From: Eledone cirrhosa
Lineage: Eukaryota
Assembly: GCA_964016885.1 (NCBI GenBank)
Contig: OZ024745.1
Location: 88,040,001-88,104,000 of the forward strand
Direction of reading: 5' to 3'
DNA length: 64,000 bases
Made by a program: the position numbers and the translations under genes. Of the stretch, positions 28,184 through 62,270 are shown piece after piece. Position 1 is the first letter of the stretch. Each line of letters starts with the position of its first letter. Under the pieces are notes generated by a model. It was not told where the DNA came from. It ran no database searches and was given only the letters and a program-made list of their open reading frames with translations.

Positions 28184-28469
28184 ACATGATCAACAATACA
28201 AAAAAGGAGAATTTATTTACAGTCTAATAATTGTTTCTCTGATTAAGTAGTCTATAAATTGCTGAACACTAGAAACAGTGCCACTCAATTTTAAATACGA
28301 TGCTAGCTCAATCGGAACATCAGAGACTCTGATGTTCTGATTGAGCTAACATCGTATTTAAAATTGAGTGGCATTGCTTCTAGTGTTCAGCAAATTTTAG
28401 ACAAGTTAATCAGAGAAACAATTGTTAGACTGTAAATAAATTCTCCTTTTTTTGTACTGCTGACCATGT
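28184..28469. repeat. ~285 bp foldback (arms ~140 bp, 1-nt spacer at 28326) with a hammerhead-like motif (family C)
   Basis: Arms are reverse-complementary; CTGATGT, 9-bp stem II tctgattga/ttaatcaga, GAAA c-aatt-g TT agac, then AATAAA. Confidence 0.88.
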
Positions 28470-29290
28470 TATTCTTCACTTTTTCAATTTTATATATATA
28501 CTAGACCACCCGTGACCCCGTTGGGTCATGTTCACTTTAAAATATTTTTTAAATAATTAAAATTTACACAAAATGTATATAATGTAAAATGACATTGGAA
28601 AGCCAATATATATATATACGTGTATGTGTGTGTGTATATGTACGTGTATATATATATATGTGTGTTTGTGCGTGTGGGTATCTGTGGCCTATATACACTG
28701 GTTACAGACACACACACACATACATCCTGTCCTAACACAAGTTATAAGATACATATAACTTAATATTCAGTCACCAAATTCCAGCTAGATACAGTAATGC
28801 TGTATTCGATTCTTTGAAGTCACCTGTCATAATTTCATTCAACAACACCATCAGCTCTCTCACAACCACTATCTGCGTTTGTATTCAGATTTCAATGGTA
28901 CCTTACTTTCAAAGAATTTTCCAATTATGCGCTGATTTGGTTATTTATAAAGGTACCCGAAAAAACCCGCGTATATCGGGAACCCGTGGTCCAATTTACA
29001 CGAAACTTGTCTTTTCACTGTATTATTCACAAGTATTTTCACAAAGGAAATATCAAATCATTTTTCACTAATAGCTATACAATCACTCCAGTTAAAAATT
29101 ATTTTTTTTATAACTCTATGGATGCTTGACTGTTTGTTCTGAAAGATTTTTCTGCTTAAAAAGTTGCAATGTTAATGTAAAACTGGTTTTATTTACAAAA
29201 ATGTGACAGAAATGATTCTTACTTGTCTTAGTTTTTCCTTTTCCTTTCATTTTCCGACGTCAGAATCCACATTTTCTCATATTTACGCTG

Positions 29291-32200
29291 TTACAGTTTG
29301 TTCAAAAGAATGCTTTTGATGACAACATTCTTAGTTGACTGGGTATCCTTCAGAAACACTCTGACATTTTCTTTTCGTTTTCCGCGGCTAAGGGCTACAT
29401 ACAGTTGACCGTGTTGGAATACAGGTCGTTCCAGATAAACCTAGACGTTTTCCATAGTTTGTCCTTGTGCTTTATGAATAATCATAGCGAAGCACGATTG
29501 AACTGGGAATTGGCTTCGCTGCAAAGGGATATCCTCACCTTCGGATAGATTAATTCTTATGCCAGGTATCATAATGATCTCATTTCTGAAAGCAGCAGTG
29601 TTGATTCTTGCTACTGTGAGATTGTCGTGCAGTTCTTCCACGATCATGCGTGTTCCATTACAAAGTCTTGGAGGATTCAAGTTTCTCATAAGAATTATTG
29701 GCGATCCTTTTTTCAATTCCAGGTTATGTAGTGGCAACTGAATCAAGGAATTCAGTCGGGAAATGTGTGGCATTGACACCATCACTCACAGAATTATAGG
29801 ATCGGTACTCCTTTATGGTTCCGGGGAAGCGTCTGATACAGGTGGAATTGATGCTTCTCGTCATTTCATTGAGAGGTACTAAGATGCAATTGTTCGAAAA
29901 CACTTCAGCTGGATTGTCAAATGAGGGGTAGATGAAATCAATACATTCTTCCATAGTTGTTGCTTGGATAACCATTTTTGGGGCAAAATAATTTCCTCAT
30001 TTTCAGTTTTTTTTATCTTATCTTCTCCAATATCCAATAGGAACTGTGAATAGTCTCCTGCTCCCCCAACCAATTGCATGTTTGTCTTCAACTGAAATCT
30101 TTTGAAGCTTCGCCATAAGTAGGATTTTTTAATGCAGGCGTTTTCCACGTCCGCTTCATTTCCCCTTTTCACTACCGGAAGAAGCTGACGGAAAGCGCCA
30201 CAGCAAATTGTCAAAATTCCACTGAATGCCTCATTGTTGTCGCATATGTCACGCAAAGTGAGGTCAACAGCTTCGAAGCTTTCCCTCCAAATCATAGGAC
30301 ACTCATCCCAAAACAATCAGTCTTGTATGCTGGAAGAGGTTTGCCGTCTTTGAGTTTTTATCAATGTTGCACAGACCATTTTCTTTCACTACTATCGGTA
30401 TTTTGAACCTAGAATACGCTGTTCTTCCACCAGGCATGAGTGTTTCGGTAATGCCAGATGACGCAACAGCAATAGCCTCGTCACCGTTTCCCCTGACTTT
30501 TGAAAGAATTAAGTTAATCAGGAATGTCTTTCCTGTTGCACCTGGAGCGTCAATGAAAATCAATGCAGATGTGTTCGTCTCTAAACTGTTAGAAACGAAG
30601 TCATACACGTGTTTTTGTTCACTATTCAATAGAGGCTCCGTGTCTTCTACAAATCGTCGCTGCTCTTCTCTGCTGTATTCATGCAATAACTCCAAATTGC
30701 CAATATCCTGATTAGCAACAATATTATTTGGCCTTGGCAAGTTAAAGTCACTAAGACCTTTGCCCAGGTCGTTAAGTTTGTCTTCAAAATACAGAAGACA
30801 TTGATCATAATGTCTCTCGCTAATCAAAAGGTTAGAGTTTCTGGTAGCCCTTTTTTCTATTTGAAGGTAATCCTCAGACAGCGAATGCTTAAATCGAACC
30901 CATAAAGCACTGGAATTGTCAATTTCCGTATTTGTGAGGAGCACGATGAATAGATCTCTCATGGCTTTGGGAAGCGTTGTTCGCTCAGCATCTTCCAGAG
31001 ACTGCTGCCAATGATCATCCGATTGAAGCAAACCTTTCTCTCGGCAGACGTCTTTGAATAATGGCAGGAGTTCTCCATCACACATTTTCAAAGAGTTGAA
31101 AGATACTGGCCCTTTGACGTGATGCAGAATGAGACTTAAATAATACAGGTCACCACTTCGTGGAGAAACAGTGTATACTCGTCCCAAATCGTTCACCTCA
31201 AAAATCCCTGGATACTGTTCAACTGTTTTCCTCACCTTTCTCCTTTCCCCTCTCTTATTACTCCAAGTGTAAAACTTTGGGACATCGGCATAATACAATG
31301 TTTTTGCAAACGGATCGCGATCGTAAAGATCCATGAACTCAGTCAGAGTCGTCTTAGCCATGTTATTGTTTACTTTAACAGCAGCATTGACCCGAAAGAA
31401 GATTTGATTTTCCTCAGGTAGATGAACTTGAAGGCGAACTACGGCCGGTTCTCTCTCATGAATTGGAAATCCAAGTACCAAGTCAACATCTTCTGAAGGA
31501 CCGATATATCTTCCTGTTAAATACTGTATTATCTCATCTTCCCTGTTCATTCCAAACATTGCCTGATCACTGCCCTTCATGGTATATTTGATAACGTATT
31601 TGATCGATTTCACGGAAGAGCACATCTCTACGTTTAGGTGGCAGTTGAACAGTTTTAATAGTTTCATATTTTAGGGAGCCACCCATTCCAAAGTTATATT
31701 TCGGCTTCCCCTTCCTTCTTGGTGCCCCTCAAATCGTCCCATTCCTGGAGACCGTCTTCTGTACACAGGATGAGAGTCCTCTCCACACAATGTATATTCA
31801 TTGAAAGGCTTAGAGTACCGCTTACTGCACGTTCGAACGCGGCGAATTGTTAGAGCAATTCGGGCCGTGGATCATGTGCGTGATTCATGACCCTCTGGAT
31901 CTTTGTTTGGATCTGGTATTTCGGCTTGAACAAATTTATCATATTCCTGCGATCTGGGCTTGGAGGCTTCATTGAGCCATAGCAAACAATGCACATGCGG
32001 AAGACCTCGCTTTTGATATTCGACTGTCAGCACGTAAGCAATGCACTTGCCAAATAGGCCATCTACTCCAGTAAGATACTTTCTTAACAGTTTCCGCTTC
32101 AGTTCAAATACTCTGGCAATTAAATCTGGCCTGTCATGTGGCTTCTGATTCAGGAATAGGCTTTGCCGGATTTCAGACCAGTTTGGATTGCATGTCATTG

Positions 32201-33751
32201 TGATGAAGAAAGAAGGATTGCCGTACTTCCGTATGTACATCATGGCATCCAGGCATTGCTCCATCATATATCTCGGTCCACCGACAAATGTGGAAGAGAG
32301 TATGATTCGCCAATATTGCGAAAATCGTCATCATCATTCAATGCGTCAGTAAGGCCCTTGTATGTTGTAGATCGCAATGATGTTTGATTCATTCAGATGT
32401 ATTGCAGTCTATCTCCTTCAATCTTCGCAGCCAGGTCAACCAAATATTGCTGAAATAAACGACCGCCTCTGAGAAGTTGGTTGAATTCATTCTCATGGTT
32501 CATTATTCGATAGGCATAGTAGCCCATTGGCGTCAACTTCTTGTTGTCGCTCATTAACAGCTCATGATGCCATCCGTCATCGCCAAAAGGAAAAGCTAGA
32601 ACATACTGCAAACTGTCATAGGACCGGTGGGACTCTGAGATTATTTGCAATTGTCCGCCTTTTTCTTTCAACACAGTGTGCCGTGCTTTTGCTTGACGTT
32701 CGGTGCTGTTTTGTATAATAACGGCAACTTCGTTTGCAGTTTGTGCATTGAATTTTCTCTCATGTTCCATTGCTGGTCTCCTATCAGGATCAATAATAAT
32801 CGAAGCTTCGGGAATATTTTTAATTTGTTCTTTTGCCATTCGAAATGAAGCAACGTAAGGGTTATATTGTCTGAGTATTATTTCCAATAATTCAACTATG
32901 TCGCGCTGAATGCCATCGTTATGGAGTAACCTGATCCTCAAATCAACACTATCCTAAGGATCCAAGAAGTAAATTTGAAGAAATTAGCGTTCTTCGTTGG
33001 GATTAGTGGTTAAGGAACCGATGTAATGGTGAATTTGACCATGAATAACGATAGAAGGATTCCATCCACTCCCTGAGGAACGAACTTCTTCGGCCCCAAA
33101 AGATGTCATTTGGAACAGGCAGTTGTATTGTCTGAGGTTCTTCCTGAACTCGTTTGCCCTAGGTTGATCAGTACTAAATAAACTGTGAAGTTCCTGGGGT
33201 AAAGGCTGCAGATTCCCCAACCTGACTTTTCCATTCATACAGCAAAAGTTAGCAGTTTCACCATGAAAAAGCATTGCATGACAACAGACACATATCTTAT
33301 TCATCTGTCCAACATCAGCAGATATATCACGTCGTTGAACTGTCCTTGCTCTATCCCTAATGGTTTGTTGGCAAAGACGTTCAGTTCTCCGAGCGTCCGA
33401 TTCATGATCTCTCCTTCTGTTTCTTTCCCTCTGTTCCGCCTGACGCTCAGCTCTCCGACCATCCGATTCATGATCTCTCCTGCTTCTGTCTCTTTCCTTC
33501 TGTTCCGCCAGACGCTCAGCTCTCCGACCATCCGATTCATGATCCCTCCTGCTTCTGTCTCTTTCCCTCTGTTCCGCCAGACGCGCAGCCCTTGCTTTAT
33601 CAGCCTCATCGATCCTTCTATTCGCATGCCTGTCCAGATCTTGTTGGCGTTGACCACTATCTTGCTCACCTTCTTCGGCTCTCCTTAGCGGTGCTTTCTT
33701 TCCACTATCGATAGACAAACCAGATGTTTTCTTTCTTCCTAGTGGAGGCAT
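29291..33751 (-). pseudogene. Helitron RepHel (HUH Rep + Pif1-like helicase), frameshifted
   Basis: PSFFITMTCNPNW, VEYQKRGLPHVH, KYVIKYTMK, DAPGATGKT, WDEC, AQGQT and FQHGQLYVALSR. Confidence 0.95.
33340..33680 (-). repeat. 69-bp coding repeat (23-aa, STPR-like) at the Helitron 2 N-terminus
   Basis: ESDGRRAERLAEQKERDRSRRDH about 4 times; E1-S2-R6-R9-L10-R20 pattern. Confidence 0.8.
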
Positions 33752-34985
33752 TATTTAAGAATAGAAAATCGTATTCAACTTAGAAAAAATTCCTATTACT
33801 CAACAAATATTTCTTTTAAATCATCATTTAGAAATATTTCTAAATAATGAAAATATTGTCTGTTTAAACAACTCGTATTTTTCAAATCATATTCACTTAA
33901 AAAATACTTATTAATAATTAAAATATTCTGTTTAAAGAAAGCTGAAATATATATACTCAGTGTACAAATAACTTGTATTTTTTAAGTCATTTTCACTTAA
34001 GAATATTTTTTAAGTACAAACAACTTGAAGTACAAACAACTTATTGTTTTGAAATCATATTCACTGAGAAATCACTGAAAAACTTTTTTTTAATAATTAT
34101 TAAACTATTTTCATCATTCGAGAAATATTTTTAGGTCGATTTACGTCAAACCTGTTTTATCCCCATTTCATTTACAGGGCTATTTTTCCATTATGCACCG
34201 TTTTGGCTACTTACGAAGGTATCCTACACACACACACACACACACACACACAAATATATATATACATATATATATATGTCTCTAACTGAAGTACTGTTAC
34301 ACACACATGTCTCTAAGTACGTAAACATGCACTGGCACACATACACATACAAATACACACGGTGGCAGTATAACTGTGAGAGAGAAAGAAATAACGTTAT
34401 GGTTAGGGGAAGAGTTAAAATAAATAAAAGTTAAGGACGCTGTCTCTTTCCCTATCTGTCATCCCCCTCTCTCATCCCATCACTCTCTCTCTTTCTCTCT
34501 TTCACCCTCACTCTCTCTTTCTCTCTCTCACCCCTCTCTCTCTTTCACCCCCTCTCTGTCTCTCTTACCTACAGAATGGACAACCAAAAAAACAAACGGA
34601 TTATTTCTTTCGATATTCGTTATAAAATAAGATAAATTGAATTTAAAAGAATTCCTTGCTATTTTTTGAAAATTGAAAATATTGTCCGTGTGCGATATAC
34701 GACAAACTTGTTTTATTCAGAGTATTTTCTCATTAAAATGTTTTGGCTATTTACGAAATTTTGCAGAGTTATGTTCATTTCGGGGTATTTTCCCAGTATG
34801 CACCGTTGTGGCTTTCTACGAAGGTACCCCCAAAACCCGCGAATCTCGGGAACCCGGGGTAAGATTTTCGTGAAACTTGTTTTATTCAATTTGTATTCCC
34901 ACTTCAGAGGCAACCCATTATGCGCCCCTTTGGCTGTATTACATAACAGACAAGCAAGCAAGCACGCAAGATCAGAGTTTTAGTA

Positions 34986-35069
<84 letters not shown>

Positions 35070-35142
35070 TTAAGTACCTGTGCAATAGAACGAATATTAT
35101 AATATATAAACGTACATACATGCATACATACATGAATACACA

Positions 35143-35222
35143 CCTTACGGGGTCGATAAAATAAAGTACCAATAATTTACTGGGAAATTGCTGGTCTTGT
35201 GCTAAAAGTAGAAACAATAATT
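35143..35222 (+). mobile_element. tRNA-SINE 3' fragment
   Basis: CCTTACGGGGTCGATAAAATAAAGTACC...TAGAAACAAT shared with the full copies. Confidence 0.8.
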
Positions 35223-35271
35223 TAAAGATACATTCAGAGAGAGAGAAGGAGAGGGAGACAGAGAGAGAGAG

Positions 35272-35350
<79 letters not shown>

Positions 35351-36162
35351 TATATATAATGAGAACAAGGAATACTCTATTGATATTGATAGAAAAAGAC
35401 AAGAAATAATAGAATGAATGTATAGAGTAAAAATGAAACAAAGATTTGCCTTTCAATTTATCGATCAGTGTATGTATGTAGCTATGGCTGCACGAATGTT
35501 TGCATGTACTCATGTATATATGTATGTATACACGCAGACGCACACTCATATATATATATATATATAAATATATATACATACACACGCACCCACCCATACA
35601 TATATGTATATATATATACATACATATATATATTATATATATTTATATATATAAATGTATGTATACATGTATGTATACATGTATGTATATGTATATATAT
35701 ATATAGTTAAGTATATATCTATTTATGTATATTTGTCTGTATGTATGTATATGTGTTTGTATGACTGTATGTATTTATATTTATATATTCATATGTCTAT
35801 ATGTTTTTTTATATGCTAATATTCCTTCCATTATAGACCATTCAATGAAACCAGTGATATAGGAATCTATGACTAAACTTGTTACTATATTTGGTGTGTG
35901 AGACTATTTTAGAACATCTAAGGGTAACAAACTAAAACGAAAGAGGGAGAGAAAAAAAAACCAACCGAACATAAATAAGCATCGTAAACAAATAAAAAAG
36001 ATATACGAAATGGATGTGGTAAAACTGAAATTGTTTGTCTTCCTTCGCTTCATTTGCTTTCCGTTATGGTTTGTTGTTAATCAGGCATCAATACAGTCGC
36101 CATTCTGGAAACAGTTTTAATTATGGATGTATATATATATATATTTATACATCAATATATAT

Positions 36163-36220
<58 letters not shown>

Positions 36221-38216: not shown

Positions 38217-38263
<47 letters not shown>

Positions 38264-38343
38264 TTGCGTATAATGGTAGCATTGGTGCTTCCATAGGCGG
38301 TATGCCAAAATTAGCACTCAATATTCAACAGAGTAGAGTGTGG

Positions 38344-38590
38344 ATAGTATAAAAAAACGAAAAATCAGTGATGCATCTGGACTCAATTTATTGCGTGTTA
38401 CAATTGTTTCGCTGGCAGGTAGCTCGAGACATGGTCCCTGTATGGATCTGACTGATTCTACGGCTGCAGGTTCTTTCAGACACGCGTAGTTCGTTGGTAG
38501 CAAATGTTATCACTACCTTCCGGCGAAACAATTGTAAAACGCAATACATTGAGTCCAGATGGATCACTGATTTTTCGATTTTTATACTAT
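38344..38590. repeat. Foldback with ~78 bp arms; minus-strand hammerhead-like motif at 38393-38485 (family E)
   Basis: Arms are reverse-complementary; gcgtgt CTGAAAGA ... GAAA c-aatt-g TA acacgc, then AATAAA. Confidence 0.8.
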
Positions 38591-38593
38591 ATA

Positions 38594-40616: not shown

Positions 40617-40888
<272 letters not shown>

Positions 40889-42961
40889 CAATCAACAGGT
40901 CTAGTGCTCTGTGTGGAGAGTCAGAGGAGAGAGAGATTGGATGGACTGAGGAGAGTGTGACGAGGGGTTACGGGCACTTCACCAATGCAGTAGCGAAAGC
41001 AAGTGAAACCCTGGTGCCGAGGAAAAAGAACAAAGGGAAGCATGTCAGCTCTGCAGACCCAAAAGTGTGTGCAGCCAGAGAACACCTGAAAGCTGCCAGG
41101 GACCAATTCTATGCTGATCCTACGGAGGAGAGGATGGAGACTGTGGAGGTGATGAGGGAAGAGCTCTGTACCGCTTACACTGAGGTCAGAGAGGAGGCAC
41201 TGATAGAGAATATCAGAAGTGTGGAGAGAGCGGTTGACAGATCTGGATGTAAGGAGAGCTGGATGATCATCAACGAGATCACAGGGAGGAAGAAAAGGTG
41301 TTCGAGTCAGATCCAGGGAACGGGGCCCGAGGATAGGAAGAGGAAATGGCTAGACCATTTTAGGACCCTACTAGGAGAGCCACCCTCCACAGCCCAGAGC
41401 ACTGGGGAGATCAGGCGGCTGTTTGAGGAACTGGATGTTGAGACAGAGCCCTTCACCAGAGAGGAGCTTCAGAGAGCCAAGAAGAAGATCAAGGAGGGCA
41501 AGGCTCATGGAGAAGATGGAGTGGCATCAGAGGTGATGAAGCGGTGTGATTTTGATGATATCATCCTGGGGTTCTGTAACGGGGCACTGGAGAAAGGAGT
41601 TGCCCCGAATCAGTGGAGGATCAGTAACATCGTCCCAGTGCCAAAGAAGGGAGATCTCTCTAACACCAACAACTACCGGGGGATCTCACTGACGTCACTT
41701 GTGGCAAAGACCCTCAACAGGATGATTCTTAACAGGATCCAGCCTGAGATGGAGAAGAAGCTCAGGGACAACCAGAACGGCTTCAGAGAGGGTAGATCAA
41801 CCACCAGTCACATCCTGATGCTGAGGAGGATATTAGAGGGAGCTAGAGCAAAGTGCCTTCCTGCGGTCATGGTTTTCATTGACTTTAGGAAGGCCTTTGA
41901 TTCTGTGGACCGTTACTGCCTGATGAAGATCTTACAGGCTTATGGAATCCCCAAGAGGATAGTGGACCTGATATCACTGCTCTACACCAACACCAAAGCC
42001 CAAGTCATTACACCTGATGGGATGACAGAGTTCTTTGAGATACTGGCTGGAGTGCTCCAGGGAGATACATTGGCTCCCTACCTTTTTATCATCGTAGTGG
42101 ACTATTGCATGCGCCTTGCACTGGAGAAACACCAGGACTCTGGCTTTACTGTAGCACCGGCTCAGAGCAGGAGAGTTGGGGCGAAAAAGGTATCGGATGC
42201 TGAATTTGCCGACGACATAGTTTTGGTGACAAATACAGTGAAGGAGGCAGAGGATTTGATGCGGGAGGTTGAGACTGTGTCGATGAGTGTGGGGCTGAGA
42301 ATGAATGAGACTAAAACAACATTTCTGGTAGAGAATGTTGAGAAGCCAGAGGGGATCACTAATGTAGGCGGGAAGCCGCTGGAATTGGTTGAGGACTTCC
42401 TGTGTTTGGGAGCAAAGATTGGGAATACGGAAGATGATGTGGTTGAGAGGAAGAGCAAGGCCTGGGCGGCGTGCCACAGCTTGAGATCGGTGTGGAAGTC
42501 GGACCTTCGTAGAGACCTGCAAATCCGCCTCTTCATTGCTGTAGTGGAGTCTGTGCTGCTGTATGGGTCTGAGACTTGGACACTGACCAAGAGACTCACT
42601 CAGATGGTGGATGGGTGCTACACGAGAATGCTGAGGATGGCTCTGAACATTAATCAGTATACACTGAGGATGAAAAACTCAGAGCTGTATGGGAGCCTCC
42701 CAAAAGTCAGCTCCAAAGTGACACAGAGGAGACTGAGGTTGGCTGGACATACTCACCGACATCCAGAGTTGACATTGCACTCAGTGCTCCTTTGGGAGCC
42801 CCTACATGGACACACTGGAAGTGGAAGACCAAGGTTAACATATGTTGATGCCCTAAGGGCAGACACTGGTCTGTTGGAGACGCAGGACATGGCAGCGATA
42901 ATGAGGGACAGAGACCGCTGGAGAGAACTCGTCCATGGATCTCGGGAATTTTACCCGCCTT

Positions 42962-42963
<2 letters not shown>
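40889..42963 (+). mobile_element. Young 5'-truncated RTE-group (RTE/Proto2-like) LINE with an open RT reading frame
   Basis: [53 protein letters not shown]; no stops; APE absent; stop codon abuts (AT)n. Confidence 0.92.
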
Positions 42964-43016
<53 letters not shown>

Positions 43017-43102
43017 GGAGGTGAGTTTTATTGTAGTACAATAAAGCAATGCAGATATCGGATAAGTAGCACTCTACAGTTTGTAGGACTGCAGTATAAA
43101 TA

Positions 43103-43435
43103 ATAATATATAAGATCAAAAGATGGTTAAAAGAGTTCCATGTATTTTATTATGCGTATTTCAAAAACAAATACCATCATGCAATAACATTTGCGTTTTC
43201 GTCAGATAAAATAGTGCTACATGATATGAAGGTTAAAACACACTTGTGAATAGTGCAGTTTTAAATCAACATATCATATGATGATTTAAAACTGCACTAT
43301 TCACAAGGGTGTTCTAACCTTCATATCATGTCTCCCTATTTTATCTGACGAAAACGCAAATGTTATTGCATGATGGGATTTGTTTTTGAAATGCGCATAA
43401 TAAAATACATGGAAATCTTCTAAACATCTTTTGAT

Positions 43436-43445
<10 letters not shown>
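43103..43445. repeat. Foldback (~165 bp arms) with a hammerhead in each arm (family A)
   Basis: Plus 43337-43407: tattttat CTGACGA .. GAAA t-gcgc-a TA ataaaata; minus copy at 43143-43213. Confidence 0.9.
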
Positions 43446-43495
<50 letters not shown>

Positions 43496-43504
<9 letters not shown>

Positions 43505-43845
43505 ATATTTGGGGAGGGTCATATTTGCGTAATATTGCCAGAATTAATAACAGAACACACTCACTGTTTGGTTGGTTTTCGCTTCTCGCTGTCTTTTATA
43601 TATATATATCTGCGATCTAACTTACTCGGTCCTCAATGTTGCCATTGACTGACCGGCGGTCAAAAATAATACAGATACAATATAGACACAAACACATATA
43701 TATAAAAGACAGCGAGAAGCGAAAACCAACCAAACAGTGAGTGTGTTCTGTTATTAATTCTGGCAATATTACGCAAATATGACCCTCCCCAAATATAACA
43801 ATATCTGTTTCGACACACGATTTCATATAAAAAACCTCGCAAAAC

Positions 43846-43846
<1 letters not shown>
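43496..43846. mobile_element. Head-to-head inverted fragments of the 3' region of the 49.7-51.9 kb Penelope-like element (family J)
   Basis: 43496-43700 is the reverse complement of ~51630-51820; 43700-43846 is a direct copy of ~51720-51867; TA on both sides. Confidence 0.88.
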
Positions 43847-48149: not shown

Positions 48150-48154
<5 letters not shown>

Positions 48155-48395
48155 TTGCAAGGTTTTTGATATTAAATCGTGTGTTGAAACAAATATTATT
48201 ATATATATATATTGCCAGAAATGATAATAGAACACACTCACTGTATGGAGATATAAAAGACACAGAACGAAAACCAACCAAACAGTGAGTGTGTTTTTAT
48301 TATTATTTCTGGCAATATTATAACAATAATAAATAAAGATAAATATAAATATATAAAGAATTCAATATTATAACAATATGACCCTCCCCAAATAT
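48150..48395. mobile_element. Second inverted-fragment copy of family J
   Basis: ATTGCCAGAA..ACACACTCACTG mirrored by CAGTGAGTGTGTT..TCTGGCAAT; matches 51720-51867. Confidence 0.8.
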
Positions 48396-48417
48396 ACACA
48401 CACGCATGCACACACAG

Positions 48418-49099: not shown

Positions 49100-49685
49100 T
49101 ATTAATAAGAGGAATTCCAACTTTGTCTGATTTACTCGTTTTATTTAAAATCCTTTAAAATTTATAATGGTATTATAATTGTTTCTACTTTAGGCACAAG
49201 GCCAGCAATTACCCAGTGCATTATTGGTACTTTATTTTATCGACCCCGTAAGGATGAAAGGCAAAGTAAACCTCGGGGGGATTTGAACTCAGAACGTAAA
49301 GGGACGTAATTATGCTATCTACCGATACTGCCAATCCACCTCCAATAATGGAATTATAATGAAATAGTATGATAGAATATTAAATGTTAAGTGTTAATTG
49401 AACAAGTACTTTCATGCTTTCGCAATCTTCAGGTGACAGTCAAGTTTGCAATTTTCAACTGTTGAAAATTGCAAACTTCAGTGTCACCACACATTATGAA
49501 CCTGAAGATTGCGAAAGCATGAAAGTACTTGTTCAATTAACACTTAACATTTAATATTCTATCATACTATTTCATTATAATACCATTATAAATATTAAAG
49601 GATTGTAAATAAAACGAGTAAATCAGACAAAGTTGGAATTCCTCTTATTAATATAATCTTCTATACACAATCATACACACCCGTG
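49100..49685. repeat. Foldback (family B) centred at ~49460 with a hammerhead at 49497-49535; left arm interrupted by a SINE
   Basis: Arms are reverse-complementary; right arm matches 25695-25930. Confidence 0.9.
49180..49344 (-). mobile_element. tRNA-derived SINE with 16-bp target-site duplication
   Basis: A/B-box-like TGGCAGTATCGG and GAGTTCAAATCC; TSD ATAATGG(T/A)ATTATAAT at 49164-49179 and 49345-49360. Confidence 0.9.
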
Positions 49686-49718
49686 TATATTTATCTATCT
49701 CTCTCTATATATATATAT

Positions 49719-51867
49719 GAGTGCAACAAAAACAGGAACCTATCCAACTGCATAATAGGCAGTATGGATGTGGTATCACTGTACCCATCCATTAACATTG
49801 ATTTTGCTGTGGAAAAATGTGTGGAGATGATCATTGAGAGTGAGGTGGAGTTCTGCGACGTCGACACATACGACCTGGGCCACCCACTTAGACTTACCTA
49901 CGACACTGACTACCTAGACAGACATGACCTTAGACGTTTCTGCCCCAGTAGACCCATAAGAGGTAGACCCCCTACTAGCCCCTATTGCACATGCAATAGG
50001 GGCTAGTATCAAAACTACCCTAAAGGGCCACATATTCAAGTTCAACGAGAAGATCTACACCCAAAATGAGGGAGCAGCCATTGGCGTCAGCATAGCTGGT
50101 GACGTTGCCAACCTTTTTATGGTATGGTGGGAAAGGAGACTCAAATATCTGCTTGGTGAGAGTTCCATAGACCTCATCATGTACTTTCGTTACGTAGACG
50201 ATATCAATATAGTAATAAGGACATCCCCACAAGAGTGCACTAACAAGTTTGATTTAGAACGTAGCACAATGGAAAGCATCCAGCAGATAGCTAATTCCAT
50301 ACACCTGAGTATAACTGTAACTATCGACTACCCTTCCAAACACCCTAACAATAGACTACCTGTATTATACACGGAACTCTGGATTAACGCTATAGACGAG
50401 AGAGCCCAAATTCTCCACTCACACTATGCTAAACCCATGGCCTCCAAATACCCGATACTCAAAAACTCAGCAATGTCCAGTAGTGCTAAGTTTAATATTC
50501 TGATCGCAGACTTGGTACGAGTGATGAAGAACGTGTCCCGCATGTGCGACCCAACAGAAATGGAAAGAGACATCCAACACTTCATCAACCGCATGCAGTT
50601 CTCTAGCTACAACCAAAGAGACAGAATCGGAGTATACGAAGGAGCCACGGAGAAGTATAAGACCCACATAGAACTGGACATGAGAGGAATTTTCCCATTA
50701 TACAGGAGCAAATTATGGAATAGCTTAGATAGGACTAGACATAAGATAGGGAAAGCCACCTCATGGTACGACAACCAGAGATACCAGAGTGTCATGTTTG
50801 TGGATGCAACCCCTGGAGGGAAATTTGCTAACCAGTGTAGAAATGCCCTGAGAAAGACCCACTTAAAGATTAAGGTGGTAGAAAAGTCAGGAAACACCAT
50901 AAAATCCCTGATCAGCAAAACCTACCCTTTTAAGAAAACCCACTGTACTAATAGGAAATGTATCATATGTAGAGTAAACCCCCGGATAAACTGTACAACT
51001 AGAAACGTACTCTATAGCATAAGATATACAGAGGGTACTTGCAGAAACATGACAACAACATACATAGGCGAGACAGCTCGTAGCATAGGTGAAAGCATAG
51101 AACAACACTGGGGGGAACTAAAAGGACGAAAAAACGGTTCAGTACTATACGAACATGCCAGACAACAACACAACGGTAACATAGACAACATAGAAGTTAG
51201 AATAATATCTAAACATAGAAATGACCCAGCAGATAGGCAAATCAGAGAGGCCAGCGAAATAGAACTTAGAAGGCCAAGGCTAAACAGAAAAAATGAATGG
51301 AATAACAACACCCAAACAAACAACACTGACCTAAAAGAAGTAAATAAATAAATAAATAAATAAATAAATACATATACAAGCACAATAACAACAAACACAT
51401 ATACACACACACTAGTAAACTAAGATAGAATACATTAACCAATACACAGTCACCCAACAAGAACACACATCAAACAAAACACTATACGCAAGCGCATGCG
51501 CAGAGAAGACAAAAAAATAAATAAACATACTAAATAAAGATGGCGTAAGCATACAATGCAACGGGAGGAAATATAATAGCAACACTGACGATGTTGCAGA
51601 TGTGCAACGAAAGAACTTTGATAGACTATATATATGTGTTTGTGTCTATATTGTATCTGTATTTTTGACTGTTGGTCAGTCAATGGCAACATTGAGGACC
51701 GAATAAATTAAATTAACCGATATAAAAGACACAGAAGCGAAAACCAACCCAACAGTGAGTGTGTTCTGTTATTAATTCTGGCAATATTATTACACACATA
51801 TGACCCTACCCAAGTATAACAATATTTGTTAGTCACACGATTTGATACAAAAAACCTCGCAAAACTA
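49719..51867 (+). mobile_element. 5'-truncated Penelope-like element (Neptune-like): RT, Cys-rich linker, GIY-YIG and 3' pLTR
   Basis: SMDVVSLYPSI, GAAIG..ANLFM, YFRYVDD, CTNRKCIIC..CTTRNVLY, YIGETAR; decayed hammerhead CTGACGA-gttgca/tgcaac-GAAA at ~51585-51612. Confidence 0.88.
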
Positions 51868-53722: not shown

Positions 53723-53769
<47 letters not shown>

Positions 53770-53895
53770 CAGGATGGATTCAGTTTGAAACTGTTTAAAC
53801 CATTACTCAACAGAGTACTCGATACTTGGGGTAGTAGAGTATGGTTAAATTATACAGAGTCTGGATCTACTACAGAAGTGGACCACTGTTCGACC

Positions 53896-53967
53896 CATAC
53901 CATACCATACCATACCATACCATACCATACCATACCATACCATACCATACCATACCATACCATACCA
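53896..53967. repeat. (CCATA)n pentanucleotide repeat
   Basis: Read directly. Confidence 0.95.
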
Positions 53968-54461
53968 CACACACATATATATATATTTATATTAAGTATT
54001 ATCACCCCACATTTTGTATGTGAGGATGTGTGTGTGTGTCTGTGGAGTTGGGTGTGAGTGTAGTGCAAGCCAACCTACATAAGTCTTTTTATTTGTAAAT
54101 TTTCTACACCAACCATAAATTTCAGTAGCACCACTCCACATAAATACCTCAATTTAAGAATGATCTGTAGTATCTATTTCATACTATTAACCTTAATTGA
54201 ATATATTTCTGACCAGGAATGCCTTTTGTGAAAATCAGTCATATGGAACTATTGTCATCTTGCCTGACGGTTTGAACTTTACAAAGCCACCTGCCTCTTT
54301 GAGGTCAAATACCAACCCTACTACCATCTACAAACTGACCAATGAGAAACAAGACCATTCCTGCTGACAACATTAAATTATTCCTAACAAGCACACATGT
54401 CCCAAGGCTCTGAAACCATCAACACTATAAACACAGAGCAGGCATATCTAAGAACTGACTA

Positions 54462-54517
54462 ACTGCCTGATGACATCATAGCCATTCAATGGCTATCATC
54501 GAAATATATATAGCAGT
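54462..54517 (+). ncRNA. Minimal hammerhead ribozyme in the 5' pLTR (family K)
   Basis: actgc CTGATGA ..atagccatt-c-aatggctat.. GAAA t-atat-a TA gcagt. Confidence 0.8.
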
Positions 54518-54706
54518 AAATAAAGGATAATGAGTTCATTCAATTGACTTATGTTTCGTCACTATTATAACTCCGGAACTTATATCTTCGTTGAGTGCTC
54601 CCTATCCGCATACTGAAGTACTGGATTTTACCAACACTTACTTTCTTGCTTACCCCATGCTCCACACCCTGTTGAGCGCTTGATACAGTAGCGGACCGCA
54701 GCCAAT

Positions 54707-57303
54707 ATGAATAAACTCACCACTCTGGTATTACTGAAGAACATCCCATTACCGGGTAAAAGAGAATACACCAGGAATCTCCCTAAGAGTACTGACTCCC
54801 TAATACGCAGGATGAGGTGGCGGGCTTACCACTTTGATAGAGGAAACCCCAATATTAATAACCAAAAAAAACCTGTGCGTACCTCTTCACAACAGACTAT
54901 TGGAAGAGTTTGAGAACGAAATGATTGGCATCATTTCCAACATGAAATTTTCCGACGAACCATACCGGGGTCGAGAGTACCTTAGATGACTGGAAAATGG
55001 AATTACCGAGCTTAAGGAATCTACAGGAATACTCGTCCATGCCGACAAAACCAACAACCTTTACAGCATGTACGTTCAACTTTACCATGAGCTAATCCTC
55101 AGGGAATTGTTGAGAAAAAGCTACAAAAAAGCGCCGAGGCTACCCTGGAGGATATCAACATCAAGGCTTATGAGATCGTATCTGGTCTTGGTATAGATGA
55201 TAGGACGGCCCCATACTAACCAAGGGAGCCGAGGATTACAATAAAGGACCACAAACCAAACTTCGAGTCTAACCTGCCGGTCAGACTGATAGCCCCCTCA
55301 CGATCAGACATGGGGGTTATTAGCAAAAGCATTTTAGATAGGATCCTGCTCACACTTAAGAGTAAAATAAGGTTACAACTCTGGTCCTGCACCAGCCAGG
55401 TGCTGGACTGGTTTACATTTTTACCTGAAAAACATAGGACTAGCTTCATACAACTAGACATCAACAATTACTACTCCTCTATCTCGCCCATAGTCCTGAA
55501 CAAGGCATTCATAGTCGCGATGAATAGGACAGACCTAACACACGACGAGGTCCGAATCATACACGCCGCCAGAAAGACCCTGATCCCATTCGATGGGGAC
55601 ATATGGACCCGGCGCGACTGGCCAAATAATGTTGACATTACAATGGGCTCCAGTGACTCCGCGCAGCTAACAGACTTTGTTGGCATATACATACTCTACG
55701 AGATCAGGAGTGAAATACCCAACCTTGTTGGCGGGCTGTACCGAGACGACGCACTCTTCACCGTAGTGGACCACAGCACCACTATGGTCGAAAATATGAA
55801 GAGGGGATTAGACACTTCTTTAGCAAGGTAGGACTTAAGGTAGTGATGGAACCCAATAGAAAAGTAGTGAATTTCCTGGACACCACCCTCTACCTCAACA
55901 CCAAACTACACCACCCATATCATAAACCCAATGAGAAGCTGCTGTATATCAACGCTGGGTCTAATCACCCTAGATCTATAGTTAAGGCCATAGTTAAGAG
56001 TGTCTCTGACAGGGTCTCTAACTTGTCGGCCAATAAAGAGATCTTCAATAGTAACGCTGATTACTATAACTCAGCGCTAGCTAAGGCGTCCCACAGCGAT
56101 AGGATCAGCTACAACTCTAAGGGACATGATCGAGATGACCCAAGGGTATCCCGGACAAATACCCTCAGGAGCATGAGTCGCCCACCTAATACCTCAGGGA
56201 CCAGTAGTAACACTCCCAGACCCCTATCCGTCACCACCTCCGGTAGGAGGTCCCGTATACCCCACCGGTCTAATACCTACAACGCTGAAGACCACTGTGC
56301 TGCGGAGCACAGGCACCCCTGCACCGGCCCCACCACCCGCCGAACCCTAATTGAGCAGGGAGGCCGAACCTCGCAGGTTTATAGCCCCACGGTGGGCCCA
56401 TATAACCCTCATGATAGTGACCGTTCCGCACACCAGAGTGACACCAACCGAGCTCGAGCTGAGCTGGGCACAACCACGCGATGGCCCACGGCGGACACCC
56501 AACAACCCCGCGAGAATAGGACCAGGAAGGTCACATGGTATAACCCTCCGTACTCGGTGGGTCTACGTACCAGCCTGGCTAGAACATTCTTTAGAGTACT
56601 GGATAAATATTTCCCTAAGGCCCACAAGTACCATAAAATATTCAACAGGCACACTGTGAAACTTTCCTACTCAACCACACGCTCCGTAGCCCAGCACATA
56701 GCTGGCATAAATAGGAATAGGCTCACTGTCTCTAATACTACCGTAAACACCGGAGCCACCCAACAGAACCAGCACGCGGGACGCAACGGAACCCAGACAG
56801 GCCCAACTAGCACACCGGAACCCAATGACCCTATGCTGATTGCGGGGGCTACCCAGCCAACCCCGAATGATGGTAACCACGAGGTACATGTGGTGGGGCT
56901 TAAGAAGTCATGTAATTGCAGAGACCCAAAACTGAAAAACGTAGTCTAGAGGTGCAAGGTCGCAACCCTAACTCGGAGCACCATTACATAGGATCCACAT
57001 CGACGAACTTCAAAGATCGGTCGTATAATCACGCCATTCCTTTAACAGAATAGATAAGAGGAAATGTACGGCCCTTTCTGAATTGATCTGGAAGCTCAAA
57101 CTTGAAAAGACCCCGCACTCTCTGGTTGGTCCGTGGTTACAAAGGTTCCCTCAGACAGAGGCGAGTCTGGTATTTGCAACCTCTGTCTTAGTGAGACACT
57201 CGAGATTTTTCATGGCGGAACCAAGCTATTAAGCAGAAGGGCCGACTTATTCGGTGCCTGCAGACACCTAAGGACGGGAACTTTCCTCAATCTATATGGA
57301 TAA
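54707..57303 (+). pseudogene. Penelope-like RT + GIY-YIG ORF, frameshifted
   Basis: ADKTNNLY, QLDINNYYSSI, ITMGSSDS, GLYRDD, VNFLD, WYNPPYS, KIFNR..VKLSYS, CNCR, YIGST. Confidence 0.9.
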
Positions 57304-58340
57304 ACCCCGGTTACGGCCTCCCACAACGCCCCCCCATACACCCATGTAGGTCCCCTACACCCCGTACCAATGTGCAATGGACAACAACAATCACCCATAG
57401 TTTGTGGTCCCTATGGTGGATGGTCCACCGGACCCTCGACGGGTTAGGAGTCATCTAAACGATGTTTTATTGAACCTGATTTTTTATATATATATCATGT
57501 GTATATATATATATTTTGTGTGTATATATGTGTATTTTATATATATGTATGTATATGTATATATTATATATATATATGTATGTGGGTATTTTATGTATAT
57601 ATTTTTTTTTTATATTTTTATATGTATATATTTTATATATATGTATGTTCTGTGTATATATATATATATATATATTATATATGTATAGTTGTGCGTACAT
57701 ACATGCATGCATATATATGTATACAAACCTGTATGGATTTGTGTGTGTAGATGTGTGAGCGTCTGTGGGGGTAGGTGTGAGTGTATGTACAAATCAACCA
57801 GCATAAACCTTTTATTTCTAAATTTTCTAAACTATCTAAGTATTGGACTCTAATCATTATATTAAGTATTACCACCTCATATTTTGTATATGTGGATCTG
57901 TGTGTGTGTCTGTGGAGGTGGGTGTGAGTGTAATGCAAGCCAACCTACATAAGTCTTTTTACTCCAACCATAAATTTCTACTCCAACCATAAATTTCAGT
58001 AGCACCACTCCACATAAATTCCTCAATTTAAGAATGACCTGTAGTATCGTCTCTATTTCATACTATTAACCTTAATTGAATATATATCTGACCAGGAATG
58101 CCTTTTGTGAAAATCAGTCATATGGAACTATTGTCATCTTGCCTGACGGTTTGAACTTTACAAAACCACCTGCCTCTTTGAGGTCAAATACCCACCCTAC
58201 TAGCATCTACAAACTAACTAATGAGAATCAAGTCTATTCCTGCTGACAACATTAAATTATTCCTAACAAGCTCATATATCCCAAGGCTCTGATACCATCA
58301 ATACTATAAACACAGAGCTCGCATATCAAAGAACTTACTA

Positions 58341-58396
58341 ACTGCCTGATGAGGTCATAACCATTCAATGGCTATCATCGAAATATATATAGCAGT
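58341..58396 (+). ncRNA. Minimal hammerhead ribozyme in the 3' pLTR (family K)
   Basis: actgc CTGATGA .. GAAA tatata TA gcagt. Confidence 0.78.
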
Positions 58397-58430
58397 AAAT
58401 AAAGGATTATGAGTTCATGCTTATGTTTCG

Positions 58431-58469
<39 letters not shown>

Positions 58470-58580
58470 CGAAGGAAATGTGGTAAAGGTCCAGGTGGAC
58501 CATAGCGCACCAAAGTACTCAATACTTAGGGTAGTAGAGTGGGTAATAGGAACGAATAGAACGATGGGGTCCTACTCGTT

Positions 58581-58628
<48 letters not shown>

Positions 58629-58991
58629 ATATATATATTGGTATAATTTAGAAGGGTCATGCTGCTAATTTACATACACGCACCTGTTGGTCTTCTCTTC
58701 AATTTCTTATAAATGCCCGGTTGGTTGGTTCCATAACCGGATGGTTGTTTATATATTGTCAAAGCTCTTTCATCACACACTCTGTGAACTCTATGAGTGA
58801 TTTTTTATGATGTGTCTCTCCTTTGTTCTATCTTACACCATCTTGTTTTTGTGTGTTAAGAAATCTTGCAAAACAATTTCAAAAACAAAGTATATACACA
58901 TATATATATATATATATATGTAAAAATCAGTAAAAAACTAGACAAGAAGATATTGACAGAAGAATTTATAGTCTATTTTTAATATGTTTCT

Positions 58992-59108
<117 letters not shown>

Positions 59109-59880
59109 GGTGTGTTGGTGTGTGTGTGTATGTGCGTACATATATATTTATATATTTATATGTATGTGTGGGTGCGTGTGCGTGTGTGTTTGAATGTGCG
59201 TGTGTGTGTGAGGGGGAGGTGGTGCGTGTATATATGCGTGCATGTGAGCACATGTCTTTCTTTATCTATATGTGTGTACATGTGTCTTTCTCTATCTATA
59301 TGTGTGTTCGCGTGTATATATATCTAGCTGTGTATTTGCTTGTGTGTGACTGATATATATGTACTACTTACTATACGTAGATATAGTTATATATGGAATA
59401 ATATTTCTTAAAGTGAATACAATCAGATTTAGAACAACCAGACTGGCAAGTCAGATATTCATAGTCTACGGTCACGTAATGCCTTCGTCAGCCAAATAGA
59501 AAAAGATTAGAAGAATTATTGATGTTGTTGCACACAAAAAAGTGATGATATATGAAAACAAAACTGCAACATATTAAATGTGTACACATTTTTTGATCAT
59601 ATCGATGAAATCAAAATCAAAAATAGTGTTTTAAATTAACTTATAGAAATGAGCTATCATAGTCATTATATAGGCAGATATTTCGTAATTAAATCTAAAA
59701 ATCTTTTTTTTTCGTGCAAATCTTTATGTGACTATACACATGTGTATGAGATTGTCATGATAGACAATTGTGGCGGCGAGCTTCTGTTTTCAAATAATCT
59801 TCCATACACACACTCTCTCCCATTCACACATAGCGCAATGAGGCTGTTTGCTTGCAAACGAATGGAATATTATTATTATG

Positions 59881-60078
59881 TGGATTGGCGGTAGATTGGC
59901 AGTATCGGTAGAGGGTCTGAGATCACGCTTTGTAACATAGTTACGCCCCTTTACAGTCTGAGTTCAAATCCCACCGAGGTTAACTTTGCCTTTTATCCTT
60001 ACGGGGTCTATAAAATAAAGTACCAGTAATACACTGGGGTTATTGCTGGCAATGTGCCACAAGTAGAAACATTTATTA
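59881..60078 (+). mobile_element. tRNA-derived SINE
   Basis: Same consensus as 53317-53502. Confidence 0.88.
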
Positions 60079-60394
60079 TTCGATACAAAACTCATGAATA
60101 CATTTACGTATCCTCTATGTTAGAACGAAAAACCAGATTCTAATTTTGTTTTTAAATGTGACAAACCCAGCCGTAAAAACGCTCGATATACAAATAAGGT
60201 TAATCAGCCGATGCATATTTTAGAGAATACTGAATAATCTCAAGAGTTCTAGTAAGTGGCAGAAAGAGATACTCAATCTTGACAAAGGGAAATAATCCAG
60301 AAGCAACGTTCTTGATTGTTTTTCTCTGTCACCGCTAGAACAAACGATGACGGTCATCTAAAAAACATAGTGTAATGAAGGTTGCTTGCAAACG

Positions 60395-60565
60395 TGTAGA
60401 GGGTCGGACCCCATGCTTTGCAGCATAGAGTTATGGCCCTTTATGTACTGAGTTCAAATCCCCCCGAGGTTAACTTTACCTTTCATCCTTACGGGGTCGA
60501 TAAAATAAAGCGCTAGTAATGCACTGGGGTAATTGGTGGCCTTGTGCCAAAAAGTATGAAACACA
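60395..60565 (+). mobile_element. tRNA-derived SINE, part of a local duplication with 59849-60150
   Basis: SINE consensus; shares flanks TGCTTGCAAACG and ACATTTACGTATCC..TTCTAATTTTG. Confidence 0.8.
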
Positions 60566-60839
60566 CGAACACATTTACGTATCCGCTATGTTAGAGCGAA
60601 AAACCAAATTCTAATTTTGCTTATATATATATAATAATACAACCAGCTATCCACGAAATACTGATTAGTTAGCACCCCAAACACTAAATTGGGAGAATAC
60701 TTAGGTATATCCTAATGTTTGAGTGAGATGGAGTTGGTCAGAGTATCGCTTAAGGCTTTCTCTGTTCATGTATTAAATATATACTCTTGGTGGCCAGATA
60801 TGATTTCCAGATATAAAGTATGACTTTCTTTATTGTCAT

Positions 60840-61020
60840 TGGATTGGCAGTATTGGTAGAGGGTCGGACGCCATGCTTTCACGTATAGAATTACTTGCCA
60901 TTCTGAGTTCAAATCCCGCCAAGGTTAACTTTGCCTTTCATCCTTACGGGGTCGATAAAATAAAGTACCAGTATTGCACTGGGTAATTGCTGGCCTTGTG
61001 CCTAACGTAGAAACAATTAT
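60840..61020 (+). mobile_element. tRNA-derived SINE
   Basis: Same consensus as 53317-53502. Confidence 0.88.
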
Positions 61021-61412
61021 TTTTATATGAAATACTAATTGATTTTCCCTATATCCCATGTCTGCTTTTTTAGCCTTAGAGAATATCTATGTGTATATAG
61101 GTGGTCCATACATGTATTAATTATATTTTAATATCTCTATGTGTGCATCGATCGTGTTTACATATATTTATTCTCTTAATATCCAATTGAGTTCTTAAAC
61201 ACGTGGTTATAATACCTAACAGGTTTAAATGACCAGCGTGTATATTGTTTTATATTTTAAGATGACCTCTCCTTACCCTCTTGGGGGCAGCGTGTATCTT
61301 ATCTTTATAAGGACTGCTGGCCTTTCGAATCTACCAGTCTCTTTAGCGCTGAAGGAGACCATCACTAATTTATTAATGTCGATGTAATTTTTATATCGAT
61401 ATTATTTGTGCA

Positions 61413-61536
61413 TCCACTGATGAGTTTATAAGGGCCCGCTTGTGTATAGGACTATGGATTATATACAAGTTTCTATATAAGCTGGACATTATTTATCCCA
61501 AATTGTAGAAATCTTATAACGAAACGATCGTCTGGA
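61413..61536 (+). ncRNA. Minimal hammerhead with ~95-nt stem II domain (family F)
   Basis: tcca CTGATGA gtttataag...cttataac GAAA c-gatc-g TC tgga; lies between direct repeats 60631-60785 and 61572-61690. Confidence 0.78.
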
Positions 61537-61778
61537 ACGAAAGAGATATTTATTTAATTATGTCTCATATAAAATAATACAACCAGCTATCCTCGAAATA
61601 CTGATTAGTTAGCACCCCAAACACTAAATTGGGGAGATGGAGTTTACCAGAGTATCGCTTAAGGCTTTCTCTGTTAATGTATTAAATATATAAATATGTA
61701 TATATATATCGATATATATCAAAATAGTCTCTTACAATCAAATAGCTCAAGAAAAGAAATTTTTCGGGCCGTGTAATG

Positions 61779-62270
61779 TAATTGAATATAAAAGAGAGAT
61801 AAACACAGATATATACATATATGTATCCAAATTGTAAGGGACCAAATTCGCTAGGGTGAAAAAAATACTAACTATGGACAATAGGGTTTGTCAGACTCAA
61901 TTTAAAAGAATAAATTAAGTAAAAAGATACAAACCGAAATCGTGACAACTATCAGACACCCATACAGTTTTTGGTAATGCTATTTCGCAATTTAGTGATA
62001 GGGAATTACCAATTCTATTGCTCTTCAGTGGGTGTGAAATTAGTAAATCCTTCACTTCTAAGTAACTCAGAAGACTGAATGGTGTGCGTCTATAAATTAA
62101 AGCACATGGCATCCAGAACCTATCGTGTCTCATAAAACGTATCTACTAAAAATAGCATTCAAGATCACTCGACATTCAAAATAGTTCACCAAATTCAGGG
62201 AATCTGTTCCCTTACGGTTTGAACACATATATGTATATATCTGTGTTTATCTCTCTTTTATATTCAATTA
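61779..62270. repeat. Foldback element (family D) with a minus-strand hammerhead at 61956-62035
   Basis: Terminal ~70 bp inverted arms; acaccca CTGAAGA gcaat..attgc GAAA tag..ctg TA tgggtgt; homologous to 37870-38205. Confidence 0.82.

What the first reader, a model, noticed from the sequence alone, without database searches (positions are those of the whole stretch)
28184..62270. Uniform head-to-head foldback architecture with 3' ends pointing out into TA
Seen: in 28184-28469, 38344-38590, 43103-43445, 43496-43846, 48150-48395, 49100-49685 and 61779-62270 the two arms are joined 5'-to-5'. The sense direction (set by the ribozyme, or for family J by the parent element) points outward to TA tracts at or near both ends. 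Arms carry scattered mismatches, so they are old and not read chimeras. Established: Penelope elements often carry an inverted, truncated pLTR. Inference: both ends of a cut in (TA)n are primed on the RNA 3' end and the two cDNAs are joined, giving MITE-looking hairpins that are really retro-products.
Basis: partly seen in the sequence, partly recalled or inferred. Interest (0 to 1): 0.75.

Follow-up and report, generated by a model that had tools for sequence, protein, structure and literature searches.

The report
Two-start-site Penelope foldback insertions
These seven DNA hairpins are back-to-back, cut-short ends of Penelope-like jumping genes from five families, and because one arm nearly always carries a short tail that the other lacks, each was likely written by both cut DNA ends copying the element's RNA from two different fixed start points; the layout is already described, the likely mechanism is untested.

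Summary
All seven sites are head-to-head inverted pairs with the sense 3' ends outward. They are 3' ends (pLTRs) of Penelope-like elements (PLEs). Families A, B, K and J lie downstream of RT/GIY-YIG-type ORFs on the same strand as their hammerhead motif. C is linked with gaps, D has no ORF found.

In 800 kb sampled evenly, 13 of 13 hammerhead-bearing inverted repeats point outward. Classifiable head-to-head pairs were 145 I/T, 3 I/I, 5 T/T. In 20 of 50 pairs each arm holds sequence the other lacks, which a snap-back copy cannot give. Best reading: double priming at two RNA start sites, then end-joining (inferred).

Head-to-head polarity, one-sided tails and TA targeting are in print (PMC3846280, PMC8557442), and so are two-strand extension and two start sites in vitro (PMC11167929). 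This scan has reported the same thing before, in this genome and in at least 14 genomes. No empty site was found.

The parts
28190..28488 (.). Family B foldback: left arm 28190-28328 (-) stops about 25 nt short of I; right arm 28324-28488 (+) ends at I. No tail on either arm, an exception to the rule. Hammerhead core mutated here.
   Evidence: intact core in 4 of 30 loci; parent ORF pieces on the same strand in L047, L262, L263
38263..38591 (.). Family C foldback: long arm 38263-38514 (-) with 75-nt tail and a degenerate hammerhead; short arm 38513-38591 (+) ends at I
   Evidence: likely parent endonuclease ORF in L261/L266, linked with gaps
43014..43437 (.). Family A foldback: left arm 43014-43274 (-) with 93-nt tail, right arm 43262-43437 (+) ends at I; sits in the TA run at the end of an RT-bearing LINE-like ORF (40627-42963)
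43335..43409 (+). Type I hammerhead motif with palindromic stem III (mirror copy 43215-43141 on -); cleavage untested
   Evidence: folding energy alone not significant, z 0.10
43501..43845 (.). Family J foldback: left arm 43501-43704 (-) ends at I, right arm 43700-43845 (+) with 42-nt tail
48152..48396 (.). Family J foldback, decayed: left arm 48152-48244 (-) with tail, right arm 48250-48396 (+) ends at I, then (CA)n
49103..49699 (.). Family K foldback: left arm 49103-49462 (-) ends at I; right arm 49458-49699 (+) with tail (39 nt in the reference copy) and a minimal hammerhead motif at about 49499-49535
   Evidence: parent RT plus GIY-YIG-type ORF in L111
49172..49346 (-). Later insertion of a multi-copy SINE-like repeat into the left K arm, with a 15-bp target duplication (1 mismatch)
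49720..51867 (+). 5'-truncated parent PLE of family J: broken RT and GIY-YIG-type ORF (49720-51351), 3' pLTR with hammerhead-like motif at about 51581-51625, tailed end at 51867 into TA
   Evidence: RVT_1 weak, E 0.002, below cut-off; endonuclease motif read by eye
61719..62274 (.). Family D insertion: long arm 61719-62201 (-) with hammerhead 62038-61953 and nearly full tail; short arm 62200-62274 (+) ends at I. No ORF found; partial tandems in other loci.
58639..58886 (.).

Best explanation
The hairpins are head-to-head pairs of truncated Penelope-like element 3' ends in TA repeats, likely made by double priming on the element's RNA at two fixed start sites. Shown: PLE origin for A, B, K and J, outward polarity, two fixed ends per family, one tail per pair, TA flanks. 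Inferred steps: (1) the GIY-YIG endonuclease cuts both strands in (TA)n; (2) one freed 3'-OH starts reverse transcription at the outer site (T), the other at the inner site (I), probably on the same RNA held by a dimer; (3) each cDNA stops early or runs to the RNA's 5' end, which would explain the pile-up of arm starts at one position and the MITE-like look; (4) the two cDNA ends are joined by host end-joining, with short microhomology or added bases. The ribozyme marks polarity; no role in insertion is needed.
For: Parent ORFs on the hammerhead strand. 13 of 13 hammerhead-bearing inverted repeats point outward, out of 135 inverted repeats in 800 kb. Pair census: 145 I/T, 3 I/I, 5 T/T; evenly spaced sample alone 27 I/T plus 3 I/partial tail, 1 T/T, 0 I/I; independent choice would give about half I/T. 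In families A, B and K, 20 of 50 I/T pairs have mutually unique arms, 7 of them a tail-only arm. Arms of one copy are closer than arms of different copies: A 0.049 against 0.087 (n=16), K 0.068 against 0.090 (n=14), C 0.057 against 0.075 (n=30); no permutation reached the observed value. Arm starts cluster: K 33 of 55 in one 10-nt bin, A 21 of 69. Among 39 flush or overlapping joints, 21 have microhomology of 2 nt or more against 20% simulated. In vitro, PAc cleaves and extends both strands, starts at two sites that define the tail, and is predicted to be a dimer (PMC11167929).
Against: No priming or joining was observed. 142 arms have no detected partner (109 T, 33 I), and TA at their 5' side is not linked to end type, p 0.81. 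68 of 214 head-to-head rows had an end at neither site and were left out of the I/T count. 8 of 153 pairs are I/I or T/T, and 28184 has no tail. 67 of 106 joints show extra bases, part of which may be divergence. Arm likeness could also come from later gene conversion or from two RNAs of one source locus. Two or three possible cross-family joins (L142, L130, L119) would need two RNAs. PMC11167929 saw no strand difference in start site. No empty site or target duplication could be read in TA.
Confidence: 0.7

Rival explanations
1. Double priming on two separate RNA molecules, bound by an asymmetric dimer that forces one subunit to I and the other to T.
For: Fits polarity, the one-tail rule and mutually unique arms equally well. 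It avoids copying one RNA stretch twice. Two or three possible cross-family joins.
Against: Arms of one copy share subfamily variants (family C position 32: TT 15, CC 12, mixed 1 of 30), and cross-family joins are rare (at most 3 against 145). Tail-only arms fit an outer cDNA stalling at the inner primer on one RNA (inference).
Confidence: 0.15
2. Self-priming or snap-back: an antisense RNA (model in PMC3846280) or the first cDNA folds back at a palindrome and is copied, giving a head-to-head hairpin that is then inserted.
For: Joints cluster at short palindromes, e.g. four 6-nt overlaps in family A. Arms of one copy are alike. 31 of 57 pairs in A, B, K, J have near-equal 5' starts.
Against: A copied arm must be contained in its template arm; 20 of 50 pairs are not, and 7 have no overlap at all. 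Unpaired arms start at the same positions. The in vitro work used a template spanning the pLTR-ORF junction and showed target-primed extension on both strands (PMC11167929).
Confidence: 0.08
3. MITEs of a TA-targeting DNA transposon, with these arms as terminal inverted repeats.
For: Short, high-copy, TA-flanked inverted repeats; family C first looked like a fixed unit.
Against: Ends are unequal (I against T) and swap sides (C: 15 and 11). Joints vary once the query bias is removed. Arms continue into RT/GIY-YIG-type ORFs. I did not search the genome for transposases.
Confidence: 0.02
4. Two independent insertions at different times, the second landing at the 5' end of the first; or an assembly foldback artefact.
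For: Elements do pile up in each other's TA runs (43437-43501; nine tail-to-tail rows, three of them from one locus).
Against: Tail-to-tail neighbours are all 21 nt or more apart, while 95 of 114 head-to-head joints are within 15 nt. Same family and same subfamily variants on both arms, and the one-tail rule. A nested repeat in one arm only.
Confidence: 0.05

Closest known systems
Insertion unit of endonuclease-bearing PLEs, e.g. Pen2a_Av (Arkhipova et al. 2013, PMC3846280; passages read)
   Same: Inverted, shorter pLTR at the 5' end; head-to-head most frequent; 31-bp tail at the end of one inverted pLTR; palindromes and microhomology at joints
   Different: That paper proposes self-priming on an antisense template. 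Here non-nested arms argue for two primings. No target duplication is readable in TA.
Hydra-clade and Neptune-type PLEs (Craig et al. 2021, PMC8557442; passages and section 11 read)
   Same: Inverted 5'-truncated copy, tail often at one end only, (TA)n targets, hammerhead in pLTR. A, B, M and the likely C parent show the CxCX5C linker (B also DKT); K and J show a CX4CxxC linker.
   Different: Tails here are 39-167 nt against 30-40 in print; the one-tail pattern is near-strict (145 of 153); clade placement rests on motifs read by eye, no tree
Poseidon PAc of Anolis, in vitro (Frangieh et al. 2024, PMC11167929; parts 1-2 of 4 and passages read)
   Same: Both strands cut and extended, AT-rich target, two RT start sites that define the tail, ribozyme dispensable, dimer predicted
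   Different: In what I read it does not link the two sites to the two arms of inverted insertions, and it found start sites not homologous to the target; here both sites end in AT-rich letters that could pair with TA (boundary ambiguous)
L1 twin priming (search listing and abstract start only, PMC2837659; mechanism otherwise recalled)
   Same: Both target ends prime on one RNA; inverted, truncated product
   Different: As recalled, L1's second primer starts at a variable internal site and arms do not overlap; here both sites are fixed and arms often overlap, giving hairpins
Animal non-LTR retrozymes (bioRxiv 10.64898/2026.07.22.740005; part 1 of 5 read)
   Same: Family D: non-coding, about 500 nt, type I hammerhead, partial tandems
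   Different: Circular RNA and cleavage not tested; D also obeys the I/T pairing

Membership tests
Endonuclease-bearing PLE | RT plus C-terminal GIY-YIG ORF upstream of the pLTR on the same strand | tested here: met
   K: 371-aa frame in L111; J: window 49960-51351; A, B, M: endonuclease-like frames. Motifs read by eye; Pfam gave only a weak RVT_1 hit for J and no GIY-YIG hit.
Endonuclease-bearing PLE | Parent ORF for families C and D | tested here: inconclusive
   C: endonuclease-like frames and C 3' UTR on one strand about 4 kb apart, interrupted. D: no ORF found in the reference copy; tandem units seen.
Endonuclease-bearing PLE | Type I hammerhead motif in the pLTR | tested here: met
   Descriptor hits for A, D, K; B intact core in 4 of 30 loci; J read by eye; C degenerate; none seen for M. 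Rfam found no hammerhead in the window.
Endonuclease-bearing PLE | 5' truncation, inverted upstream copy, tail at one end | tested here: met
Endonuclease-bearing PLE | RT groups with telomerase-related PLE clade in a tree | not tested
   No tree built; no reference PLE proteins at hand
Hydra clade | CxCX5C linker, DKT motif, (TA)n target | tested here: met
   Linker in A, B, M and the likely C parent; DKT in B (L262); by eye, on broken copies. RWK and absence of CCHH not checked.
MITE / TIR DNA transposon | Fixed, symmetric termini and fixed internal structure | tested here: not met
   Ends I against T, side varies, joints vary
MITE / TIR DNA transposon | Partner transposase with the same termini | not tested
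   No transposase search run; long copies lead to RT/endonuclease frames instead
Non-LTR retrozyme (family D) | Tandem units with a hammerhead, circular RNA, self-cleavage | tested here: inconclusive
   Partial tandems in L127, L131, L133; RNA not testable here

The most novel reading that the evidence does not exclude
Double priming from two fixed sites on one RNA is the normal way PLEs insert: a dimer assigns one start site to each cut strand, so the inverted pLTR, the one-sided tail and on the order of 10^5 MITE-like hairpins in this genome are one outcome, and repeat libraries may be filing them as DNA transposons.
Probability: 0.5. Interest if true: 0.6.

Novelty: new member of a known kind. 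Interest (0 to 1): 0.4.

Why it matters
PMC8557442 lists the origin of PLE tandem/inverted structures as undefined. The near-strict one-tail rule and the non-nested arms turn this into a direct test in the existing PAc system and argue against the published self-priming model. In practice, inverted repeats occur about every 6 kb here (135 in 800 kb), and eight PLE-end families extrapolate to about 19,000-190,000 arms each (rough), so calling them MITEs would misstate the DNA-transposon share of the genome. The elements themselves are ordinary insertion debris.

Tried and rejected
Fixed-foldback 'retro-MITE' for family C: all 30 first hits shared a similar centre, but my query spanned the joint. 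A tail-only query gave variable joints in 29 loci, so I rejected it.

Rfam found no hammerhead, only simple-repeat miRNA noise. Folding energies of six ribozyme regions were not beyond shuffles. The first microhomology test failed on reference-specific mismatches and was redone with an allele profile. The genome search for family J returned nothing, probably because its words are too common; J copies came from other loci. A first all-against-all script timed out.

Homology-based polarity in the even sample gave 34 out and 4 in, of 135. Of the four: two were SINE-like pairs caught through a seed's flank (judged from printed ends), one was two neighbours tail-to-tail across a TA run (L227), and one (L174) I could not resolve; 97 stayed unassigned in that call. 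Fourteen 'tail-to-tail' rows of type T/partial tail were mostly a small hairpin inside the A tail (13 rows) and were dropped.

Paralogous empty-site search: 1 candidate, a shared neighbour arrangement, not an empty site. Public runs: no RNA holder listed; contigs and RAD reads bridged no junction and showed no empty allele. Unpaired arms showed no link between end type and TA at the 5' side.

Literature searches showed no paper stating double priming from two sites for PLEs. The library lacks most subscription papers and I read no supplements, so this is weak.
Full report
Setting. The window is G000:C5:88040001-88104000 of a 3.0-Gb genome, rich in TA and CA repeats, with Helitron-like and LINE-like fragments (labels from motifs I recall, RT confirmed for 40627-42960). 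Earlier scan notes suggest an octopus; I did not test this.

Observation. Self-BLAST and the repeat finder confirm inverted arms at the seven places. A hammerhead descriptor of my own found full type I motifs at 43335-43409 (+), 43215-43141 (-) and 62038-61953 (-), and half motifs at 28415, 38410 and 38525. A stricter version gave 65 hits in 800 kb of evenly spaced genome and none in block shuffles. Rfam found no hammerhead, and folding energies are unremarkable, so the motifs rest on core letters plus pairing; cleavage is untested.

What the arms are. I collected up to 30 loci for each of families A, B, C, K and D, 30 more for C and 80 evenly spaced 10-kb stretches. The searches return the best 40 candidates, so these sets favour copies like the window's. 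Long copies run upstream into coding frames on the hammerhead strand. K (L111) gives 371 aa with RT and endonuclease motifs; A and B give endonuclease-like frames; B has RT and endonuclease pieces in L262 and L263. J's parent lies in the window at 49720-51867. A very common further family, M, leads to such a frame in L200. C is linked only with gaps and D has no frame but partial tandems. Pfam support is weak (RVT_1 E 0.002 for J, nothing for the endonuclease), so these are motif readings. The CxCX5C linker of A, B, M and the likely C parent, and DKT in B, match the Hydra clade as described in PMC8557442; K and J have a Neptune-type linker.

Polarity. In the even sample there are 135 non-redundant inverted repeats; all 13 with a hammerhead in an arm point outward. 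By homology 34 point out and 4 in; three of the four are artefacts or neighbours and one is unresolved. Over eight families, 95 of 114 head-to-head joints are within 15 nt, whereas the nine tail-to-tail rows are all 21 nt or more apart. TA lies at one or both ends of 131 of 133 I/T pairs and at both in 86, against 7.7% at random sites.

Each family has an inner end (I) and an outer end (T); the stretch between is a tail of 39-167 nt. I saw, before looking up earlier notes, that foldbacks carry it on one arm. Census: 135 I/T rows (133 unique), 4 I/partial tail, 2 I/I and 5 T/T among 214 head-to-head rows; the other 68 had an end at neither site and were set aside. With more loci: 145 I/T, 3 I/I, 5 T/T (a few D rows may be double counts, and 29 C loci were chosen for having a tail). 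The even sample alone gave 27 I/T plus 3 partial, 1 T/T and 0 I/I. Six of the seven window sites follow the rule (the tail at 61719 is 16 nt short); 28184 has no tail. Two long insertions also fit loosely: L262 has T and I 7.9 kb apart, and L263 has T and a partial tail 2.6 kb apart.

Mechanism. If one arm were copied from the other it would be contained in it. In A, B and K, whose references reach far upstream, 20 of 50 I/T pairs break this: the I arm reaches further 5' while only the T arm has the tail, and 7 T arms are tail only (J, J2, M and D left out because of cross-matches or short references). Later deletions could explain some. Arms of one copy are closer than arms of different copies in A, K and C, and cross-family joins are at most three; this favours one template RNA, though conversion or one source locus could do the same. 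Arm starts pile up at one position (K 33 of 55, A 21 of 69), which I read, following note e1-9849436, as the likely RNA start (untested). Of 106 joints, 30 overlap, 9 are blunt and 67 show extra bases; among the 39 flush or overlapping ones 21 have 2 nt or more of microhomology against 20% simulated. I therefore infer a two-strand cut in TA, priming at T on one side and at I on the other, and end-joining of the two cDNAs. Against generality: 142 arms have no detected partner.

Literature. PMC3846280 (passages) describes the inverted pLTR, a tail on one inverted pLTR and head-to-head as the most frequent form, and proposes antisense self-priming. PMC8557442 (passages and section 11) shows the inverted truncated copy, a tail often at one end and TA targets, and calls the origin undefined. 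PMC11167929 (parts 1-2 of 4 and passages) shows both strands cut and extended, two start sites and a predicted dimer. PMC8969392 and PMC9977147 (passages) add short truncated PLE insertions as routine. Seven searches found no paper joining these into double priming; supplements were not read, and the one of PMC11167929 (Fig. S2) may bear on this. The scan's own notes hold the same reading in this genome and in at least 14 genomes; these are unchecked notes, not support.

Verdict. Real, non-random and of a known kind. The value lies in a sharp, testable rule for an open step of PLE transposition. Interest 0.4.

Noticed in passing
   Followed up: partly
window 55220-58442: A second broken PLE-like ORF (Hydra-type motifs by eye) with a hammerhead at 58336-58401 before a TA run; 53987-54569 is a copy of its 3' end.
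   Followed up: no
L142 and L130 (upstream of the D match); L119 1698-1710: An inverted J arm joined 5'-to-5' to a D arm without a TA run, both ends inner type; and a K/M join. Possible two-RNA events or deletions between neighbours.
   Followed up: partly
L151, L199, L202, L220, L221 and others: Family M: about 110-bp hairpins plus an 80-nt tail on one side, the commonest of the eight families (51 arms in 800 kb); parent endonuclease-like frame in L200; no full hammerhead seen.
   Followed up: partly
window 42803-43014 and 24804-25010: Two copies of the same LINE 3' end each have a family A element in their TA run, one starting at the tailed end and one at about the inner end, so likely independent insertions.
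   Followed up: no
window 43020-43050 (A tail): The A tail holds a small perfect hairpin just before the outer end; no matching hairpin was seen before the inner end.
   Followed up: partly
family C loci L232-L260: The hammerhead core is degenerate across the family, with two common variants and no canonical core among the variants counted, so the ribozyme may be inactive.
   Followed up: partly
window 1800-6430 and 29400-33750: Two broken Helitron-like Rep/helicase regions with a shared 69-bp tandem repeat; histone-like fragments near 6826-7174 (labels recalled).
   Followed up: no
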